From: a virus
Lineage: Duplodnaviria > Heunggongvirae > Uroviricota > Caudoviricetes
DNA length: 64,000 nt
IMG/VR virus record: IMGVR_UViG_2648501802_000002
Reading direction: 5' to 3' (one strand)
The notes under the pieces were generated by a model. It was not told where the DNA came from and ran no database searches. It saw nothing but the letters and a program-made list of their open reading frames with translations. Below are positions 4,976-30,599 of the stretch, piece by piece. Position 1 is the first letter of the stretch. Every line of letters starts with the position of its first letter. The position numbers and the translations under genes were made by a program.

Positions 4976-5710
4976 ATGGTGGTGGCCATGTCAGCAGTTT
5001 GTTACTTCATACTCATAAAGAAACCTATAAGCTTTCAATTTCTTAAGGATTTCTTAATATTAAATTATGGTGATGTGTTGTTGCTTAAGCATTCTGAGCA
5101 TGAATGCTTAAAAATCTATTCAGACAAATATATAGAATTCGAACTCAATGATAATACCGTAAGAAACTATTTATCATGCAACAACAACCATGGAAACCAA
5201 TCGCTGGATAAGTGTCCGCATTTGCTAAAAAAGTCTTTTGCCTATCCTGATTTATTAATCAGGATGATCGATAATATAAGCGATCAAAATCATATCCATT
5301 CTGATTTTAGGGAGGCAGTAACTTTTTCATTACTCTCAATTTTTAATGATGTTGATAACTTTAGAGCATTTCTTACGTCTGGTATGCCCACTTTCTCAGG
5401 GAAAGTGCGCAGCATATTTCTTTCAGATGTATCTAAACACTGGAAACTAAGAGACCTAACCGATTATCTCTACATGAGTGAAAGCTTAATAAAGAAAAAA
5501 CTATTATTGGAAAACACCTCCTTCAGTAAGTTATTACTTGATACACGGATGGCTTTTGCTATTAAATTACTAAAGCAAAATCATCCAGTCAAACAAGTAT
5601 CAGAAAGCTGTGGCTTTAGTAGTACATCGTACTTTGTGTGCCTGTTCAGGCAATATTATAATTGCACGCCACGTGAATATGCAAAACATCAATTATTATC
5701 TGGAAAATAA
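4976..5710 (+). CDS. AraC/XylS-family transcriptional regulator (GadX/AppY-like), AT-rich cargo
   Basis: 244-aa ORF; C-terminal AraC HTH (SESLIKKKLLLENTSFSKLLLDTRM...SSTSYFVCLFRQYYNCTPREY) close to GadX/AppY pattern; divergent from the EAL gene across an AT-rich intergenic region. Confidence 0.65.
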   Translation: MVVAMSAVCYFILIKKPISFQFLKDFLILNYGDVLLLKHSEHECLKIYSDKYIEFELNDNTVRNYLSCNNNHGNQSLDKCPHLLKKSFAYPDLLIRMIDNISDQNHIHSDFREAVTFSLLSIFNDVDNFRAFLTSGMPTFSGKVRSIFLSDVSKHWKLRDLTDYLYMSESLIKKKLLLENTSFSKLLLDTRMAFAIKLLKQNHPVKQVSESCGFSSTSYFVCLFRQYYNCTPREYAKHQLLSGK

Positions 5711-5748
5711 GATGCATTTATCTCCCAGATAATATTGTAATATTAAAC

Positions 5749-5997
5749 TCAGTCAGCATTTAGTAGCAGAGCATTATCTATGATGATCTGCTCCCATTCT
5801 TCGAATGCCCGGTCACGGACGCCCTGGGGAACACTGTTTGTTTTGAAATCAACGACTGTCCGCCATTTCCCGTCCGGACGGTACATGCGCAGAGCTTTAC
5901 TTCCCCCTTCCCTACGCACCTCAACGTTATGCTTGTCAGCAAACTCTTGTAATGCTCGTAGCGTCCCATGCTTTACTGTGTAGTATCGCTTTTTCAA
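5749..5997 (-). CDS. lxc: Small phage protein, lxc-like by position
   Basis: 82-aa ORF immediately downstream of the next ORF and two genes from darB, as lxc is in P1 by my recollection of gene order; no motif-level confirmation. Confidence 0.3.
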   Translation of the reverse strand: MKKRYYTVKHGTLRALQEFADKHNVEVRREGGSKALRMYRPDGKWRTVVDFKTNSVPQGVRDRAFEEWEQIIIDNALLLNAD

Positions 5998-6434
5998 GTT
6001 TTCTCTCCAGCCTGTGCCAAGGCTTCAACTTCCAAATCGTAAGACTCAAACTCATAGTCCTGGTCGTCAACTTCTTCAGGCACTGGCAGTAAATGCCAGG
6101 CTGAGTATATCTGACCATTATCAAAACGCTCCTGGCTGTAGAGCGTCGCAGCTATGAGCGTCAGCGCCGGGCGGTCATAACGGTAAATTTTGCGAACGTC
6201 ACGGTCAACGAGACGACCGAAATTACCATAACCGCGCTCCAGTAATAATTTTTTAATTTCCGGCCAGTATGGGCCATAGCTGCGGTACAGGCGGGGATTT
6301 TTCAGTAATCGCCCGCGTAGCCCTGACAGGAAGAAATCAACGTATTCGTCTTCTGTCTTTCCTAACAACGCTGTACGGAGTACCGCCTCAAGATATGTTT
6401 TATTCGGTTTTATTGTATCAGATAGTGTGGCCAT
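5994..6434 (-). CDS. ulx: Hypothetical phage protein, ulx-like by position
   Basis: 146-aa ORF directly downstream of the darB-like gene on the same strand with 4-nt overlap to the next ORF. Confidence 0.3.
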   Translation of the reverse strand: MATLSDTIKPNKTYLEAVLRTALLGKTEDEYVDFFLSGLRGRLLKNPRLYRSYGPYWPEIKKLLLERGYGNFGRLVDRDVRKIYRYDRPALTLIAATLYSQERFDNGQIYSAWHLLPVPEEVDDQDYEFESYDLEVEALAQAGEKT

Positions 6435-25518: not shown

Positions 25519-25590
25519 AAGTTCCCTCCTACGTTGTCAGGAGGTAATGGTATGCAAAGTAACTTCTCAACCGGTCATGTTACTTGACAT

Positions 25591-25616
25591 CCTCCACGTC
25601 CTTTAGAGCGTGGAGG
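25591..25616. other. 8-bp perfect inverted repeat hairpin immediately 5' of the intron-like element
   Basis: CCTCCACG-(10 nt loop)-CGTGGAGG, 4 nt upstream of the GTGCG start at 25621. Confidence 0.4.
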
Positions 25617-25620
25617 ATGT

Positions 25621-26460
25621 GTGCGCCCAGCATGGGCGCGATCTTGGAGGTGAAAGCCCTCCCGCGAGCTGACCACAGCGAGCGAAAGGAAGTGCAACTG
25701 CGTGAGGGCGGCTAGGCGTGGGGAGGAAGCACGGAATGAACCCGTGAGCCGATGAACAAGAATCGGATATGAGGCGCGATGGAGCAAGGCGAGCAGGCAC
25801 ATCACTGCGAAGCTTTCGTGACAAAGTCGCGTAGATCCGACGGTTGTGCGGGGAAGGATCGCGTTCTTACCTGGGGAGTTCTCGCCTCATGCCTGAAAGG
25901 GCAACGTCGTAAGACGGAGCGAGAAGTCAGCAGAGGCCGTAGTAGTCAGGACTCCGACGAAGGGCCGAACGAGAAGGAAAGCCAAAAGATATGACTCTTG
26001 ACAGGACATTGCGTCAGAAGCCGGGGAAGCCCGGTACGGACCCGCATGCCGGGTGGTGTGGCAGGGGCGCAGCCTTGTGCTCCCCCCTATGCCGATCAAG
26101 CAGAACATTGTGCTGGGCCTCTGACGCATCTCCTTGATGGTCTTGGCATCGTGCTTAAGTGGATTGGTGTCGTCTCTGATAGGCTCATGGAGGCAGAATG
26201 AAACTCAAAAATCCGGGACAGCACGCAAAACAGGCTGCACAAAAAGCGCAGGTTGCGTAGGAGTGGAATCCCGCTCCCAAAAAATGGTGCAGAAGTTGCG
26301 GCAGTGGTCATCCGACGCACTGGAAAATAACAAACCCGCCGTGACCAGAATCGGAGGCCTGAGGGAGTGACCGTAAAACCGGATAACCCAGGCAGCAAAT
26401 ACCCGCTGGATGAGGCATGGTTCCGGCAGATAATACCGAAAACCGCCAGACACACTGGAT
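25621..26460 (+). mobile_element. Group II intron 5' fragment (domains I-III-like RNA, no intact maturase ORF); 3' boundary approximate
   Basis: Starts GTGCGCCCAGCATGGGCG (compare Ll.LtrB GTGCGCCCAGATAGGGTG); shares motifs GCGAAAG, AATCGG, GTCGC and CGTAGTAGTC...GAAGGG with LtrB domains I-III; GNRA-rich; only short ORFs on either strand. Confidence 0.5.
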
Positions 26461-26516
26461 AATCAGTAGAAATAACCCATTAAAATCATTATAATAATTG
26501 GGCACATTATTATATT

Positions 26517-27080
26517 ATGCTGAATAATAGAGACATGAATATTAATGAACTTAAAGACTGTATTCACTATGAAGTAATCGGTAGCGAGCGTCCTTTCTCC
26601 TGGCGAAAGGCAATTGTTCGCGCAATAAAACATAGAAGAGTTCGTTATTTATTTTGGTGGCGCATAGCCAAATACCTTTTTGATAAAGGCGGATACTGTC
26701 GGAAGATTGCGGGGAAAATGGAACGTTTCATTCTTGATAAATATAGTGTAACAGTCCCTTTAACTGTAAATATAGGGAAAGGCTTTGATATTTCTTATCT
26801 CAACGGTGTTGTTATCGGTCACAAAGTAACCATTGGTGAAAATTGTTCAATAAAACCAGGGGTAACTATTGGGCTACGTGGTGATTTTAATGATATGGAT
26901 ATTGTTATAGGACATAATGTGACCATTGGTTGTAATGCCACCATTCTTGGTGGCAAAGTGCGTATAGGAAACAATGTCACAATAGGTGCTCATGCATTGG
27001 TATTGCATGATATTCCTGATGATTCAACATTCATCACTAAATTTCAGTCTGAAGTTATCTGCTCGTCCTCTTGCACATAA
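26517..27080 (+). CDS. Hexapeptide-repeat (left-handed beta-helix) acetyltransferase, AT-rich cargo
   Basis: 187-aa ORF with tandem hexapeptide repeats ([23 protein letters not shown]...[34 protein letters not shown]); 3' end overlaps the convergent tfa stop by 37 nt. Confidence 0.7.
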
Positions 27081-27661
27081 CCCTGATTCATCAGCTCTGG
27101 CCATACGATATCCGGAGCTGTACTGGTGTCAATTCGACTCACTAATACTCTGTATTTTCTCCAGGAATCCAGTTGTGAATTTTCCTCGGTTGTTGCTATT
27201 TCAAGATTAACTGCATCCTGCAGAATTGCGATGTTATCTGTTGCCTCCTGAATCAACCTTGCCTTTTTCTCTTCCGCTTCCCGTATCCGAAACAGTTTTT
27301 CTGCTTCCTCATCCTTCACCCAGGATACGCCGTCCCACTTCTGATACTCCCCTGCTGGCGACAACCAGGTGACATTCTCTGGTAACGGTCCGAGTTCAGA
27401 AATAAACAACGCGTCCCCCGATGCCACGTCATAGACCGTTTTACCACGATGGTCTTCAACAATAATCCATGATTCATTTTCACTGTTAAAAACTGCCACA
27501 AAGCCAGCAGGAATTTCCGGTGGGGCGATATCTGTAGAATTAGCTGGTAGCCCTGTATGAGGTGGAATATATGCGTCACCTTCACCAATAAACTCATTAG
27601 TTCCGGCGAGCAGGTTATAAATTTTTACAGTACGTGATTGTTCACTCATTCTGAATGCCAT
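27044..27661 (-). CDS. tfa: Tail fibre assembly protein (lambda Tfa-like) with altered C-terminal tail
   Basis: 205-aa ORF; [60 protein letters not shown]... nearly matches lambda Tfa; last about 16 residues differ. Confidence 0.8.
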
Positions 27662-28552
27662 TATGCAAGCCTCACAATATAATTAAATGCGATGTTTTTA
27701 ACGGTGTTTTCCGAGTTACCAGCAGCGTTAACGGTGATGGTGTGTCCATGTGAACCAATCGCAACAGAGTGCGTATGAGCGCCAATATCAACTGTATGTG
27801 CATGCGCCCCTGCACTTGCAGCGGTGCCTGATACTGAGTGGGTGTGTGCACCAGAAGAAGGCACAGTTCCATTCCCCACCACAGTGCCGCTTGATGAGCC
27901 ATCAAGCCAGTCGAAATTCATACCGCCACCATCTGGTCTCCTTAATGGAACGGTATGAGTATGTGCGCCAGCACTATTTGCAGTACCAGATACATTGTGG
28001 GTATGTGCACCTGTGTTATTCGTTGATTTAGTACCGTAATCAAACGAAGATGTGGTTTTCGTACCCAAATCCGTATTGGATGCGCTGGCGCTGTGGGTGT
28101 GCGATTTAATGCCATCCTGTTCCAGAGACAATACGTCCCGACCACTGGCGGGTTTGCCCTTGATTGTCCAGCCACGCATATCCGGGATCACGCCTGACGG
28201 ATAAGCGGCTGCAAGTTTCGGGTATGCAGATTTGTCAAAAGTCTGTCCCTGCATCAGGGCGTAACCAGACGGCACAGTATCTGATGGCCACGGATGCGGA
28301 ACACCAACAGGAAGGACCTCAATATCCCCGGAACCATCAAACGAAACGTTATTAATTTTACGGGCTGTTTTCAGCTTTGTAGCCGTTGAGGCATTGCCGG
28401 ACAGCTCACCAGAAATGCCACCAACAACTGTTAGATCACCAGTTATTGTGCCGCCTGAACTTTCCAGTTTTTTAGCAACATCACTCTTAATAGAGTCGAT
28501 TTCTTTTTTTCAGATTAGTTATATCTGCTGGTATCGTTGTCACTGTTGCCAT
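27661..28552 (-). CDS. Tail fibre receptor-binding protein (lambda Stf C-terminal domain-like); frame broken at an A7/T7 run
   Basis: ATG at 28552 ([16 protein letters not shown]) then frame switch at T7 run 28504-28510 into ...[40 protein letters not shown]...[11 protein letters not shown], which matches lambda Stf C-terminus. Confidence 0.6.
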
Positions 28553-28725
28553 ATTAATTCCTTACGCCCATTCCCGCAGCGGTTGTTCTAATTGAACTTC
28601 AAAACCATCAAACATTTGTTGTTTCAAACTGTTGTTTAAAATACGAACATTAACGAAGAAGCCATCATTTTTAATCACTGTTGGTTCTTCGTTCTCGCCG
28701 TTTGGTATTTCGGTATATGTAACAC

Positions 28726-30153
28726 CTACAACATCAAGAAGAATGTTGTTTTGCAGCTCTTCATTATCGTGGTGCCGAGTTCTCTTAAACCAAGGTATTG
28801 GATAACAGCAAGGACGCTTGTTTTGGACAGAATATCGCGACCGACTGACGTTAAGTCAGTCTGAGAAACAGTGTCTGTACCGGTAAAGTACGGCAGTTTA
28901 TTTGCGCCTGTAGCAAGACCAGCAAGCGCGGTTAAAGTTGCATCCAGAGGCTGTTTGCCTGCCAGCGCATTTGTCATTGTTGTCGCAAAGTTCGGGTCAT
29001 TACCAAGTGCTGCGGCAAGCTCATTCAGGGTATCAAGAGCTTCTGGTGATGAACCAACCAATGCGGATATGGCAGCTCTTACATAAGCAGTCGTAGCAAT
29101 CTGCGTATTATTTGTGCCCTGCGCAGCCGTAGGCGCAGTAGGGACTCCCGTTAATGCAGGGCTTGCCAAAGGCGCTTTGAGGGCTAGGGCATTGTTGATA
29201 GTTGTGCTGAAATTCGGGTCGTTATTGATCGCAGCAGCTATTTCTTTAAGCGTATCCAGTGTGCCAGGTGCACCGTTGATAAGTGCCGTTATAGCTGACT
29301 TAACAAAGGCTGTATTTGCGATCTGCGTGCTATTTGTACCTTGCGCTGCCGTCGGCGCGGTTGGCGTTCCTGTCAGACTCGGGCTTTCTATTGGCGCTTT
29401 GGTATCAGCAAGACCTTTTACAGACTTAACGGCTTTAGGGGTAGCCGCCATTGTTTCGCTGTCGCTGTTAGTTTCGCTACTGAGCTGAACTAATCCCTTT
29501 TGCGTTGTGCTTGCATCCTGTGCCGTATACTTGCTTTTCGCCAGATCGTAGGCTTTTTTAGCTGCCAGCGAACTTGCAGCAACATCACTTCTGCTACTGG
29601 TTACAGAGTCTGAAATATCAATGCCGATCGTGCGGTTAATACGCTCGGATGTATCAATCATCTCCTGGGTAATGGCTGATACGCCAGCAGGGATATTCAC
29701 CGTACAAACAAGCAGCTCTCCATCTCCTAACTGATATGAATCGGTATAGGTTCTGGCAACAAATTCAGCCGCATGAATATGTGACGCGGTATTAACCTGA
29801 TAGGTATCCTCTCCAAGGAGGTATCTTCCCTTCAGCACAATTGCATATTTCTTGCCTTCACTAAGTGCAAGAGAAATATCCTTACGGTGCCGAATAGTTA
29901 CCTGGTAGAATTCACCAATATCCACTGACGCAGCGCCAGCAGTTTTATCACCATCCACTGAGGTGATTAACAGGTTCATACCACCGCCAGGCTTCGGCAG
30001 GAAACCGGCATAAAACCCAGGATCAACAATTCCCCTGAATTTTCGGTTTAGCGCGGCTGACAGATATGGTTCGTGGTATTGCACATCAGCCACCAGAGCC
30101 AGTGACTCGGGCGATGGGTAAGTAACTGATGTAACAACTGTAACGTCATTCAT
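28726..30153 (-). CDS. Tail fibre protein, constant part (P1 S / lambda Stf middle-region-like)
   Basis: Start at ATG 30153 (MNDVTVV...); contains fibre repeats GTPTAPTAAQGTN.TQIANTAFV and ...TALAGLATGANKLPYF...GRDILSKTSV as in lambda Stf; frame ends 12 codons after the crossover site. Confidence 0.6.
   Translation of the reverse strand: MNDVTVVTSVTYPSPESLALVADVQYHEPYLSAALNRKFRGIVDPGFYAGFLPKPGGGMNLLITSVDGDKTAGAASVDIGEFYQVTIRHRKDISLALSEGKKYAIVLKGRYLLGEDTYQVNTASHIHAAEFVARTYTDSYQLGDGELLVCTVNIPAGVSAITQEMIDTSERINRTIGIDISDSVTSSRSDVAASSLAAKKAYDLAKSKYTAQDASTTQKGLVQLSSETNSDSETMAATPKAVKSVKGLADTKAPIESPSLTGTPTAPTAAQGTNSTQIANTAFVKSAITALINGAPGTLDTLKEIAAAINNDPNFSTTINNALALKAPLASPALTGVPTAPTAAQGTNNTQIATTAYVRAAISALVGSSPEALDTLNELAAALGNDPNFATTMTNALAGKQPLDATLTALAGLATGANKLPYFTGTDTVSQTDLTSVGRDILSKTSVLAVIQYLGLRELGTTIMKSCKTTFFLML
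28773..28798. other. Din-family DNA invertase crossover site (gix/cix/hix-like 26-bp dyad) inside tail fibre gene
   Basis: TTCTCTTAAACCAAGGTATTGGATAA: 12-bp inverted half-sites around a central AA; lies where the fibre constant region ends. Confidence 0.5.
28885..29420. repeat. Tandem repeats of about 180 bp within tail fibre gene; coordinates approximate
   Basis: Protein-level repeat (...PTAPTAAQGTN.TQIA.TA.V..AI.AL...P..LDTL.E.AAA..NDPNF.TT..NALA.K.P) occurs twice, with matching DNA repeats. Confidence 0.4.
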
Positions 30154-30164
30154 CAAGCATATCC

Positions 30165-30599
30165 TTATGCTATAGTCGTGTTGATGGCCATAACTGCGGT
30201 ATATGTTTTTCCCACATACAGCGAGTCTTCCTGAACACAAATAATTGCGATGGGCTTATTCTCGTTATCCAGAACAACCAGAGTGTTGAATGGATAGTTT
30301 TTCCCTTCCTGCAACTGGCTTTGATCAAGGTCCATTCGGACAGTAATTATCCCGCCAGAGTAGGTTGGGACGAGGTTGATGGTGCAAAATTGACTGGTCA
30401 GTTCTGCCAACTCGAAAGTCTTTGGCAGTTCTCCAATGTCATAAGTACCATCTTCATTTTTGGTAACCAGCGAACTGGTGCCGAAAACGGCCTTGCTGAT
30501 TAAAAATCGAGAGCCTTTGTTAATGGACGATTCAGCGCGTCGCTGATAGTAATAATCCAACAACTGACTCTTATAGAGATTTGTTGAGACGTCAGACAT
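30165..30599 (-). CDS. Tail fibre-associated protein (P1 R-like by position)
   Basis: 144-aa ORF immediately upstream of the fibre gene. Confidence 0.35.
   Translation of the reverse strand: MSDVSTNLYKSQLLDYYYQRRAESSINKGSRFLISKAVFGTSSLVTKNEDGTYDIGELPKTFELAELTSQFCTINLVPTYSGGIITVRMDLDQSQLQEGKNYPFNTLVVLDNENKPIAIICVQEDSLYVGKTYTAVMAINTTIA

What the first reader, a model, noticed from the sequence alone, without database searches (positions are those of the whole stretch)
26517..27080. AT-rich hexapeptide-repeat acetyltransferase inserted at the 3' end of tfa (possible surface-polysaccharide or receptor modification cargo)
A left-handed beta-helix acetyltransferase (CysE/LacA/WcaB-like repeats) sits convergent to tfa and overlaps its stop by 37 nt. 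The Tfa C-terminal 16 residues differ from lambda Tfa, consistent with the insertion rewriting the tfa end. Genes at the fibre locus often alter the cell surface to block superinfection, though this enzyme type is cytoplasmic rather than an Oac-type membrane acyltransferase.
Basis: partly seen in the sequence, partly recalled or inferred. Interest (0 to 1): 0.5.

Follow-up and report, generated by a model that had tools for sequence, protein, structure and literature searches.

The report
Phage tail-fibre cargo: odd acetyltransferase-like gene
A small, AT-rich gene for an acetyltransferase-like protein travels with a tail-fibre cassette between several kinds of E. coli phages; databases label it "serine acetyltransferase", which does not fit, it lacks the histidine such enzymes use for catalysis, and its function is still unknown.

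Summary
ORF 26517..27080 (+) is a hexapeptide-repeat protein, convergent with tfa (27044..27661, -) and overlapping it by 37 nt. Its conserved start is probably 26535 (181 aa).

It is not a local insertion. It is one end of a cassette (leader, gene, tfa, fibre tip; 26447 to about 28300-28423). That cassette occurs in 191 of 5426 complete E. coli genomes, on P1-like and 47-kb phage-plasmids and in P2-like and lambdoid prophages.

The gene is under strong purifying selection (dN/dS about 0.06-0.09) and carries a conserved promoter-like leader. A confident model has the serine-acetyltransferase (SAT) fold.

It is not CysE. It scores far below the curated cut-offs and lacks the SAT catalytic and serine-binding residues. 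The catalytic His is Tyr (Y94) in this protein and its 13 closest relatives, and His in nearly all the ~240 more distant homologues examined.

Distant relatives sit in polysaccharide biosynthesis clusters. The best reading is a lysogen-expressed cargo gene derived from a glycan O-acetyltransferase that alters the cell surface, with uncertain chemistry.

The 37-nt overlap and the Tfa tail come from a stop-codon loss in one lineage. The gene is already annotated and has been remarked on in print, with no function known.

The parts
26447..26534 (+). Conserved leader of the cargo gene and left edge of the mobile cassette. It holds promoter-like hexamers TAGAAA (26467-26472), a 17-nt spacer and TATAAT (26490-26495).
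   Evidence: Homology to P2-like prophages, 47-kb phage-plasmids and phage 613R2 begins exactly at 26447. The hexamers were found by the scan and recur as TAGAAA-17-TACAAT in the P2-like locus L003. In the second allele group, conservation starts at the first hexamer. GC is 0.284.
26535..27080 (+). Conserved CDS (181 aa) of the SAT-fold hexapeptide-repeat protein. The longest ORF starts at 26517 (187 aa).
   Evidence: Pfam Hexapep 5.7e-13. PHROG 2154, 'unknown function', 3e-79. NCBIfam EpsC 85 bits (cut-off 150), CysE 74 bits (cut-off 210.65), WcaB 59 bits (cut-off 194.65). AlphaFold pLDDT 92.6 and Foldseek SAT matches with TM 0.63-0.75. dN/dS 0.055-0.087 for the allele pairs that diverge at dS 0.31-0.70. 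The start at 26535 is supported by TTG/CTG at the first codon in allele group 2 and by the RefSeq call.
26796..26798 (+). Codon TAT = Tyr94 (187-aa numbering; Tyr88 in the 181-aa form), at the position of the catalytic histidine of SAT-type enzymes.
   Evidence: This is an ungapped stretch flanked by IGKGF and G-VVIG. It is Tyr in the query and its 13 closest relatives (53-100% identity) and His in the other 99 of 112 homologues. Among 146 further representatives, 141 have His and none has Tyr. The profile-to-PDB alignment puts this column on the SAT catalytic His. The role of E. coli His158 is taken from PMC8786284.
27044..27080 (.). The 37-nt convergent overlap: the last 12 codons of each gene. 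This is a derived feature.
   Evidence: Coordinates. In allele group 2, Tfa stops at ...WPEL* and the genes are 10 nt apart (L127: gene 5019-5564, tfa 5575-6147).
27044..27661 (-). tfa, a lambda-type tail fibre assembly protein (205 aa) with an 11-residue longer C-terminus than lambda Tfa.
   Evidence: Caudo_TAP 2.3e-39. PHROG 105. Aligned with lambda, mEp332 and cassette copies. Lambda homology ends at 27099.
27661..28423 (-). Receptor-binding end of the tail fibre (lambda Stf / T4 gp37-like, His-rich repeats). It is the right-hand part of the cassette, and its right edge varies between 28293 and 28423.
   Evidence: Collar and Phage_fiber Pfam hits. PHROG 295. The shared block ends at 28293, 28313 or 28422-28423 in different backbones. 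The tip co-occurs with the gene in about 40 of the 53 loci examined.

Best explanation
This is a self-contained cargo gene (a 'moron') that has become welded to the 3' end of a lambda-type tfa and now moves with the tfa and fibre-tip cassette between P1-like, P2-like, lambdoid and 47-kb phage-plasmid backbones by recombination.

Shown: it encodes a soluble protein with the serine-acetyltransferase fold (four helices plus a left-handed beta-helix). The protein belongs to the short EpsC/WcaB-like branch, whose distant members sit in Wzx/Wzy-type polysaccharide clusters. The gene is intact, strongly constrained, and preceded by a conserved sigma-70-like leader that points away from the late operon.

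Inferred: it is transcribed in the lysogen, forms a trimer that binds an acyl-CoA, and acts on a sugar acceptor at the cytoplasmic face of the membrane. Candidates are an undecaprenyl-linked repeat unit or a nucleotide sugar. This would change a surface glycan and so alter phage adsorption or antigenicity, in the manner of prophage-borne NeuO.

Because the general-base His is replaced by a clade-invariant Tyr, and the SAT serine-binding residues are absent, the substrate is not serine and the chemistry may be atypical.
For: Cassette and mobility:
- The identical left edge at 26447 appears in four backbones.
- The cassette is in 191 of 5426 E. coli genomes, at 165 chromosomal and 58 plasmid places.
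- In about 40 of the 53 loci examined (6 annotated records, 47 IMG/VR), including nearly all with a full-length gene, tfa is convergent immediately downstream.
- In P1 the same interval holds lydC, cin and the invertible C segment.

Functionality:
- dN/dS is 0.055-0.087 for the allele pairs that diverge at dS 0.31-0.70.
- The leader and its promoter-like hexamers are conserved.

Fold and family:
- Hexapep 6.6e-13.
- The family profile matches SAT structures at 3e-43.
- The model has pLDDT 92.6, and its top 50 PDB matches are all SATs.

Ancestry:
- P0024, P0037 and P0100 (31-32% identity) lie among glycosyltransferases, flippase and EpsG polymerase genes.

Precedent:
- NeuO is a prophage-encoded left-handed beta-helix capsule O-acetyltransferase (PMC3046976).

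Site conservation:
- The loop facing the putative active site (GLRGxFxxMD) is conserved within the Tyr clade. This argues for a retained specific binding site.
Against: The catalytic His is Tyr. The NeuO structure paper states that all crystallised family members share a catalytic His.

There is no experimental or expression evidence. No terminator was detected after the gene.

More divergent Tyr-type relatives (53-69% identity) lie beside transposases, not tfa. The link to the fibre is therefore one historical junction, not an ancient functional coupling.

Carriers include several O serogroups: O121, O6, O166 and various ETEC. This argues against a single O-antigen-specific target.

The co-travelling fibre tip resembles lambda Stf. 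From general knowledge, lambda Stf binds a protein receptor that a cytoplasmic acetyltransferase could not modify directly.
Confidence: 0.42

Rival explanations
1. A pseudo-enzyme. The Tyr clade kept the trimeric beta-helix and its ligand pocket but lost acetyl transfer. It would work by binding: sequestering a lipid-linked glycan intermediate, blocking a polysaccharide assembly enzyme, or binding a component of an incoming phage. That would make it an exclusion or defence factor rather than a modifying enzyme.
For: The His-to-Tyr change is confined to, and invariant in, the closest 13 relatives. No Tyr occurs among 146 further representatives. Strong purifying selection shows the protein is still used. 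SAT residues Asp143, Arg192 and His193 are also replaced, by Thr, Met and Asp (alignment). In P2-like prophages the gene sits between tfa and the tail genes, a position that from general knowledge holds exclusion genes such as P2 Z/fun.
Against: There is no match to any PADLOC defence model. Tyr can in principle act as a base or acid, and some beta-helix N-acyltransferases work without a catalytic base (general knowledge). No partner or target is known.
Confidence: 0.2
2. An active acyltransferase with a non-glycan or non-surface target. This could be a small molecule, an amine-containing metabolite or a nucleotide-linked signal. It would serve phage defence or counter-defence or host physiology, with no functional link to the neighbouring fibre.
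For: The acceptor pocket is remodelled relative to SAT. Divergent Tyr-clade members occur away from fibre genes, beside transposases and a UDG-family gene. A His-type relative, P0018, sits at the end of another E. coli prophage several genes away from its tfa. Carriers span several serogroups.
Against: The only informative contexts for the wider family are polysaccharide clusters. Matches to Vat and CatB xenobiotic acetyltransferases are marginal, at 24-27 bits against cut-offs of 300-475.
Confidence: 0.2
3. A genuine serine O-acetyltransferase (CysE) that boosts host cysteine synthesis, as the database name implies.
For: RefSeq and GenBank name it 'serine acetyltransferase'. The fold and the best PDB matches are SATs.
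Against: It scores 74 bits against TIGR01172 (cut-off 210.65) and 46 bits against PRK11132 (cut-off 397). The SAT catalytic His158 and Asp143 are replaced by Tyr and Thr, and the GDRHP serine-binding motif reads NDMDI (residue roles from PMC8786284). No SATase_N Pfam domain is detected, even at E up to 10. The C-terminus ends ...SSSCT rather than in the Ile tail used to dock CysK (general knowledge).
Confidence: 0.02
4. A non-functional hitch-hiker: a decaying fragment carried along with the fibre cassette.
For: Truncated copies exist (L005, L135, L138, L142). In the window the adjacent fibre genes themselves look damaged.
Against: It is full length compared with all relatives of 177-191 aa. 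dN/dS is about 0.06 with dS up to 0.70. The reading frame is intact in dozens of loci.
Confidence: 0.03

Closest known systems
NeuO, the polysialic acid O-acetyltransferase of E. coli K1 prophage CUS-3
   Same: It is a prophage-borne, soluble left-handed beta-helix acyltransferase-family protein encoded outside any polysaccharide cluster. It gives a precedent for a cytoplasmic enzyme of this type changing a surface glycan (PMC3046976).
   Different: NeuO has the catalytic His and Trp, and a 5' heptanucleotide repeat that gives phase variation. Here the His is Tyr and there is no tandem repeat. NeuO is not among the 60 best PDB sequence matches, which are dominated by SATs. The two therefore belong to different branches of the superfamily.
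Short SAT-like polysaccharide O-acetyltransferases (EpsC, WcaB, and unnamed proteins of about 185 aa in O-antigen/EPS clusters)
   Same: Same length, and the same architecture of four helices plus a beta-helix. These are the best NCBIfam matches (EpsC 3.2e-24, WcaB 2.8e-16). Relatives at 31-32% identity lie inside glycosyltransferase/flippase/polymerase clusters.
   Different: It scores far below every equivalog cut-off. It is not in a polysaccharide cluster but on phages. The catalytic His is replaced.
Serine O-acetyltransferase CysE
   Same: Same fold: Foldseek TM 0.63-0.75 and probability 1.00 against 50 SAT chains. The family profile matches SATs at 3e-43.
   Different: It lacks the full N-terminal SATase domain, the catalytic His/Asp and the serine-binding Arg/His, and it falls below the curated cut-offs.
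Membrane O-antigen acetylases of serotype-converting phages (Oac of Sf6, and the OafA/Acyl_transf_3 type)
   Same: Similar position in the genome, as lysogenic-conversion cargo near tail genes, and a similar supposed outcome.
   Different: An unrelated protein family. There is no Acyl_transf_3 hit and no hydrophobic segment: the maximum 19-residue Kyte-Doolittle mean is 1.06.

Membership tests
Left-handed beta-helix (hexapeptide) acyltransferase superfamily | Tandem hexapeptide repeats | tested here: met
   Pfam Hexapep 6.6e-13, 48 bits against a cut-off of 27.
Left-handed beta-helix (hexapeptide) acyltransferase superfamily | Left-handed beta-helix fold | tested here: met
   AlphaFold model with pLDDT 92.6 and pTM 0.84. 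The 50 best PDB matches are all SATs, with probability 1.00 and TM 0.63-0.75.
Left-handed beta-helix (hexapeptide) acyltransferase superfamily | Catalytic histidine in the active-site loop | tested here: not met
   Tyr94 occupies the column that is His in 99 of 112 homologues and in 141 of 146 further representatives. That column aligns with the SAT catalytic His.
Left-handed beta-helix (hexapeptide) acyltransferase superfamily | Homotrimer with acyl-CoA bound at subunit interfaces | not testable with these tools
   Only monomer prediction was available, and there is no ligand modelling.
Serine O-acetyltransferase CysE (EC 2.3.1.30) | Score at or above the curated equivalog cut-off | tested here: not met
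   TIGR01172 gives 74.2 bits against 210.65. PRK11132 gives 46.1 bits against 397.
Serine O-acetyltransferase CysE (EC 2.3.1.30) | Catalytic His158/Asp143 and serine-binding Arg192/His193 (E. coli numbering) | tested here: not met
   Aligned residues are Tyr, Thr, Met and Asp (alignment to 8i04). The roles of His158 and Asp143 are from PMC8786284. The roles of Arg192 and His193 are from general knowledge.
Serine O-acetyltransferase CysE (EC 2.3.1.30) | N-terminal SATase domain (long isoform) | tested here: not met
   No SATase_N hit, even at E up to 10. The profile covers only SAT residues from about 100 onwards. Short CysE isoforms without this domain do exist (PMC13040420), so on its own this feature is weak.
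WcaB / EpsC polysaccharide O-acetyltransferases | Score at or above the curated cut-off | tested here: not met
   EpsC gives 85.5 bits against 150. WcaB gives 59.4 bits against 194.65.
WcaB / EpsC polysaccharide O-acetyltransferases | Location inside a polysaccharide biosynthesis cluster | tested here: not met
   Here the gene lies between a phage lysis/intron remnant and tfa. The feature is met only for distant homologues.
NeuO-type prophage capsule O-acetyltransferase | Prophage-encoded beta-helix acyltransferase outside the capsule or O-antigen cluster | tested here: met
NeuO-type prophage capsule O-acetyltransferase | Phase-variable 5' heptanucleotide repeat, and a catalytic His/Trp pair | tested here: not met
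   No tandem repeat in 26300-27300. The His is replaced by Tyr.
Phage 'moron' (independent cargo unit) | Present or absent between otherwise related phages, with deviant base composition | tested here: met
   Lambda, mEp332, P1 and the U2501-type plasmids lack it at the same locus. GC is 0.375 against 0.484 for the window.
Phage 'moron' (independent cargo unit) | Own promoter and terminator, and expression from the repressed prophage | tested here: inconclusive
   There is a conserved promoter-like TAGAAA-17-TATAAT. No terminator was found downstream. No expression data are available.
Oac/OafA membrane O-acetylases (Acyl_transf_3) | Multi-pass membrane acyltransferase domain | tested here: not met
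   No PF01757 hit and no hydrophobic segment.

The most novel reading that the evidence does not exclude
The phage clade is a repurposed SAT-fold protein that no longer performs His-catalysed O-acetyl transfer. It would be either a binding-only pseudo-enzyme or an enzyme with new Tyr-dependent chemistry. It would act as a prophage exclusion or defence factor, for example by trapping a lipid-linked glycan intermediate or an acyl-CoA-linked signal. That would be a new functional class carried in the fibre-adjacent cargo slot of four phage lineages.
Probability: 0.2. Interest if true: 0.7.

Novelty: new variant of a known kind. Interest (0 to 1): 0.4.

Why it matters
The gene is in about 3.5% of complete E. 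coli genomes and in many P1-like phage-plasmids that also spread resistance genes. It is uniformly labelled 'serine acetyltransferase', a name the sequence does not support. One paper on P1-like plasmids explicitly could not explain its presence (PMC9603915).

If it alters a surface glycan, it would be a second E. coli example, after NeuO, of a soluble beta-helix enzyme doing lysogenic conversion. It could affect serotyping, phage-therapy host range and superinfection.

If the Tyr substitution means lost or changed catalysis, it becomes a compact test case for how an enzyme fold is repurposed on a mobile element.

The practical results are a corrected annotation, a defined cassette with exact boundaries, and a single-residue hypothesis (Y94) that can be tested directly.

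Tried and rejected
- First AlphaFold run with a 26-sequence alignment. The beta-helix was poorly formed (pLDDT 75) and Foldseek gave nothing significant. It was replaced by a 101-sequence run.
- PADLOC defence models: no hit.
- Literature searches by protein accession and by topic found no functional study. They found only the remark in PMC9603915 and general statements on prophage acetyltransferases in Klebsiella.
The best hit, Erwinia typographi at 37% identity, has His.
- I looked for tfa next to divergent Tyr-clade relatives. The contigs are short, and where they are readable the neighbours are transposases or a UDG-family gene, not tfa.
- CysE was rejected, and so were the Vat/CatB antibiotic acetyltransferases and the membrane Oac type.
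- A NeuO-like phase-variable repeat was rejected.
- The idea that the overlap with tfa is a designed regulatory feature was rejected, because allele group 2 lacks it.

Full report
**Observation**

The ORF 26517..27080 (+) of 187 aa is present. It is convergent with tfa at 27044..27661 (-), and the two share 37 nt.

It carries hexapeptide repeats (Pfam Hexapep 6.6e-13). tfa is a Caudo_TAP protein (2.3e-39).

The gene and its leader are markedly AT-rich. GC is 0.375 for the gene and 0.284 for the leader, against 0.484 for the window; GC3 is 0.29.

The first ATG is not conserved. In a second allele group that codon is TTG/CTG, and only the Met at residue 7 is shared. RefSeq also aa. The CDS is therefore most likely 26535..27080.

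**Setting**

The window is a P1-like (IncY) phage-plasmid, 98.5% identical over this region to NZ_CP083486.

Homology to P1 runs up to 25578, which is the LPdar promoter upstream of lydA. It resumes at 28770, at the cixR end of the constant part of S.

P1's lydC, cin and invertible C segment are replaced by 3.2 kb containing:
- a group II intron 5' fragment (Rfam D1-D4, 25702-25965);
- the AT-rich gene;
- a lambda-type tfa;
- a lambda Stf / gp37-like fibre tip.

**A mobile cassette, not a local insertion**

The block from 26447 to about 28300-28423 recurs at 93-96% DNA identity, with the identical left edge, in:
- P2-like chromosomal prophages, between gpU and tfa (L003, L006);
- 47-kb phage-plasmids, next to repA (L004);
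- phage vB_EcoM-613R2 (L001).

It is found in 191 of 5426 complete E. coli genomes, at 165 chromosomal and 58 plasmid places.

In about 40 of the 53 loci examined (6 annotated records and 47 IMG/VR contigs), including nearly all with a full-length gene, the convergent tfa and the fibre tip follow directly.

A second allele group (gene 89-90% identical, tfa 83-85%, tip 75-83%) lies in lambdoid prophage remnants. In L127 it is bracketed by inverted IS1 copies.

**The tfa end**

DNA homology to lambda and mEp332 tfa stops at 27097-27099, just after the codons for ...DIxWP.
- In allele group 2, Tfa ends ...DIVWPEL* and the two genes are 10 nt apart.
- In the window type that stop is lost. Tfa then reads 15 further codons into the antisense of the cargo gene's 3' end.

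The 37-nt overlap and most of the novel tail are a secondary accident in one lineage, not a designed feature.

**The gene is functional**

For the allele pairs that diverge at dS 0.31-0.70, dN/dS over codons 7-175 is 0.055-0.087.

About 60 nt upstream are conserved in both allele groups, starting at a promoter-like TAGAAA-17-TATAAT/TACAAT. No terminator was detected downstream. This meets the composition and presence/absence criteria of a moron. Promoter use is untested.

**What the protein is**

- The best curated models are EpsC (85 bits; cut-off 150), CysE (74; 210.65) and WcaB (59; 194.65). All are far below their cut-offs.
- It belongs to PHROG 2154, 'unknown function' (3e-79).
- It matches no PADLOC defence model.
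- A family profile matches SAT crystal structures at 3e-43.
- With 101 aligned sequences, AlphaFold gives pLDDT 92.6. The model shows four helices followed by a beta-helix, and the 50 best PDB matches are all SATs (TM 0.63-0.75).
- It has no hydrophobic segment, and no SATase_N or Acyl_transf_3 domain.

**Why it is not CysE, and why it is unusual**

In the alignment to Salmonella and E. coli-type CysE:
- catalytic Asp143 and His158 correspond to Thr and Tyr;
- the GDRHP serine-binding stretch reads NDMDI.

The roles of Asp143 and His158 are from PMC8786284.

The His column lies in an ungapped stretch (IGKGF-x-I-x-H/Y-x-x-G). It is Tyr in the query and its 13 closest relatives (53-100% identity), and His in the other 99 of 112 homologues.

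An exhaustive HMMER scan of 1.84 billion representatives found only four clusters at E <= 1e-30. Among 146 further relatives from that scan, 141 have His and none has Tyr.

The NeuO structure paper notes that all crystallised family members share a catalytic His. Within the Tyr clade the adjacent loop, GLRGxFxxMD, is conserved. This suggests a retained, specific pocket.

**Clues to function**

Three distant relatives of about 185 aa (31-32% identity) all sit among glycosyltransferase, flippase, EpsG polymerase and sugar-nucleotide genes. The lineage therefore descends from polysaccharide repeat-unit O-acetyltransferases.

A His-type relative at 46% identity, P0018, lies at the end of another E. 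coli prophage.

More divergent Tyr-type relatives (P0009, P0014) lie beside transposases, not tfa. The coupling to the fibre is therefore a single historical junction that has since co-diverged.

Carriers span several serogroups, including O121, O6 and O166. This argues against one O-antigen-specific acceptor.

**Verdict**

The best reading (about 0.4) is a lysogen-expressed cargo protein of glycan-acetyltransferase ancestry that alters the cell surface, as prophage NeuO does for the K1 capsule. The chemistry is uncertain because of Tyr94.

The rivals are:
- a binding-only pseudo-enzyme (about 0.2);
- an acyltransferase with a non-surface target (about 0.2);
- true CysE (about 0.02);
- a dead hitch-hiker (about 0.03).

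The gene is already annotated in hundreds of records. It was noted, unexplained, in PMC9603915.

What is new here:
- the cassette anatomy with exact boundaries;
- the origin of the overlap with tfa;
- rejection of the CysE label;
- the clade-specific loss of the catalytic His.

Noticed in passing
window 25579-26446, with Rfam hits at 25702-25866 and 25884-25965 (+): A GC-rich (0.565) stretch with no ORF lies between the lydA promoter and the cassette. It contains a group II intron 5' fragment: D1-D4-3 at 95.5 bits and D1-D4-1 at 46.8 bits. No reverse-transcriptase ORF and no domain V/VI match were found. It is shared by the P1-like plasmids that carry the cassette. It probably explains the Sinorhizobium, Rhizobium and Pseudomonas plasmid hits.
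   Followed up: partly
window 25579-28769: Compared with phage P1, lydC, cin and the whole invertible C segment (5.2 kb) are replaced by this 3.2-kb block. Homology to P1 resumes at 28770, right at the cixR end of Sc. This element therefore has no invertible fibre switch at this locus.
   Followed up: yes
window 28504-28510 (- strand A-run), in the distal fibre gene that starts at 28552: The gene for the fibre tip begins ATG at 28552 (-). It has a run of 7 A where the plasmid U2501 (L149) has 6. This shifts the frame and gives a stop after about 21 codons. The long ORF listed at 27661..28275 is the out-of-frame remainder. It could be a homopolymer sequencing error, an inactivating mutation or slippage.
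   Followed up: partly
window 28726-28772: The constant part of tail fibre S (504-aa ORF 28726..30240) ends 15 codons after a junction at about 28770-28772. There it is joined out of frame to the middle of a 92-aa ORF known from U2501-type plasmids. The closest relative, L002, has an intact 1181-aa fibre with 1.4 kb more here. The fibre of this element may be defective.
   Followed up: partly
window 27120-27318 (-): A sub-threshold Rfam match to the candidate sRNA family IS009 (79 bits; gathering score 117) lies entirely inside the tfa coding sequence on the tfa strand. It most likely reflects tfa homology, not an RNA gene.
   Followed up: no
L127 3951-4718 and 7459-8226: In one lambdoid prophage remnant, the gene, tfa and fibre-tip block is bracketed by two 768-nt IS1 copies in inverted orientation at 100% identity. 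This forms a composite-transposon-like unit next to chromosomal two-component and DUF1456 genes.
   Followed up: partly
L009 6001-7697: In Enterobacteriaceae bacterium BIT-l23, the His-type relative P0015 (49% identity) is followed by two more hexapeptide-repeat genes in tandem. The setting is non-phage and chromosomal, near an OprD-family porin gene.
   Followed up: no
plasmid hit H38 (CP056621.1): One P1-like plasmid has a macro-domain protein gene within this same fibre and cargo region. The slot evidently accepts other cargo.
   Followed up: no
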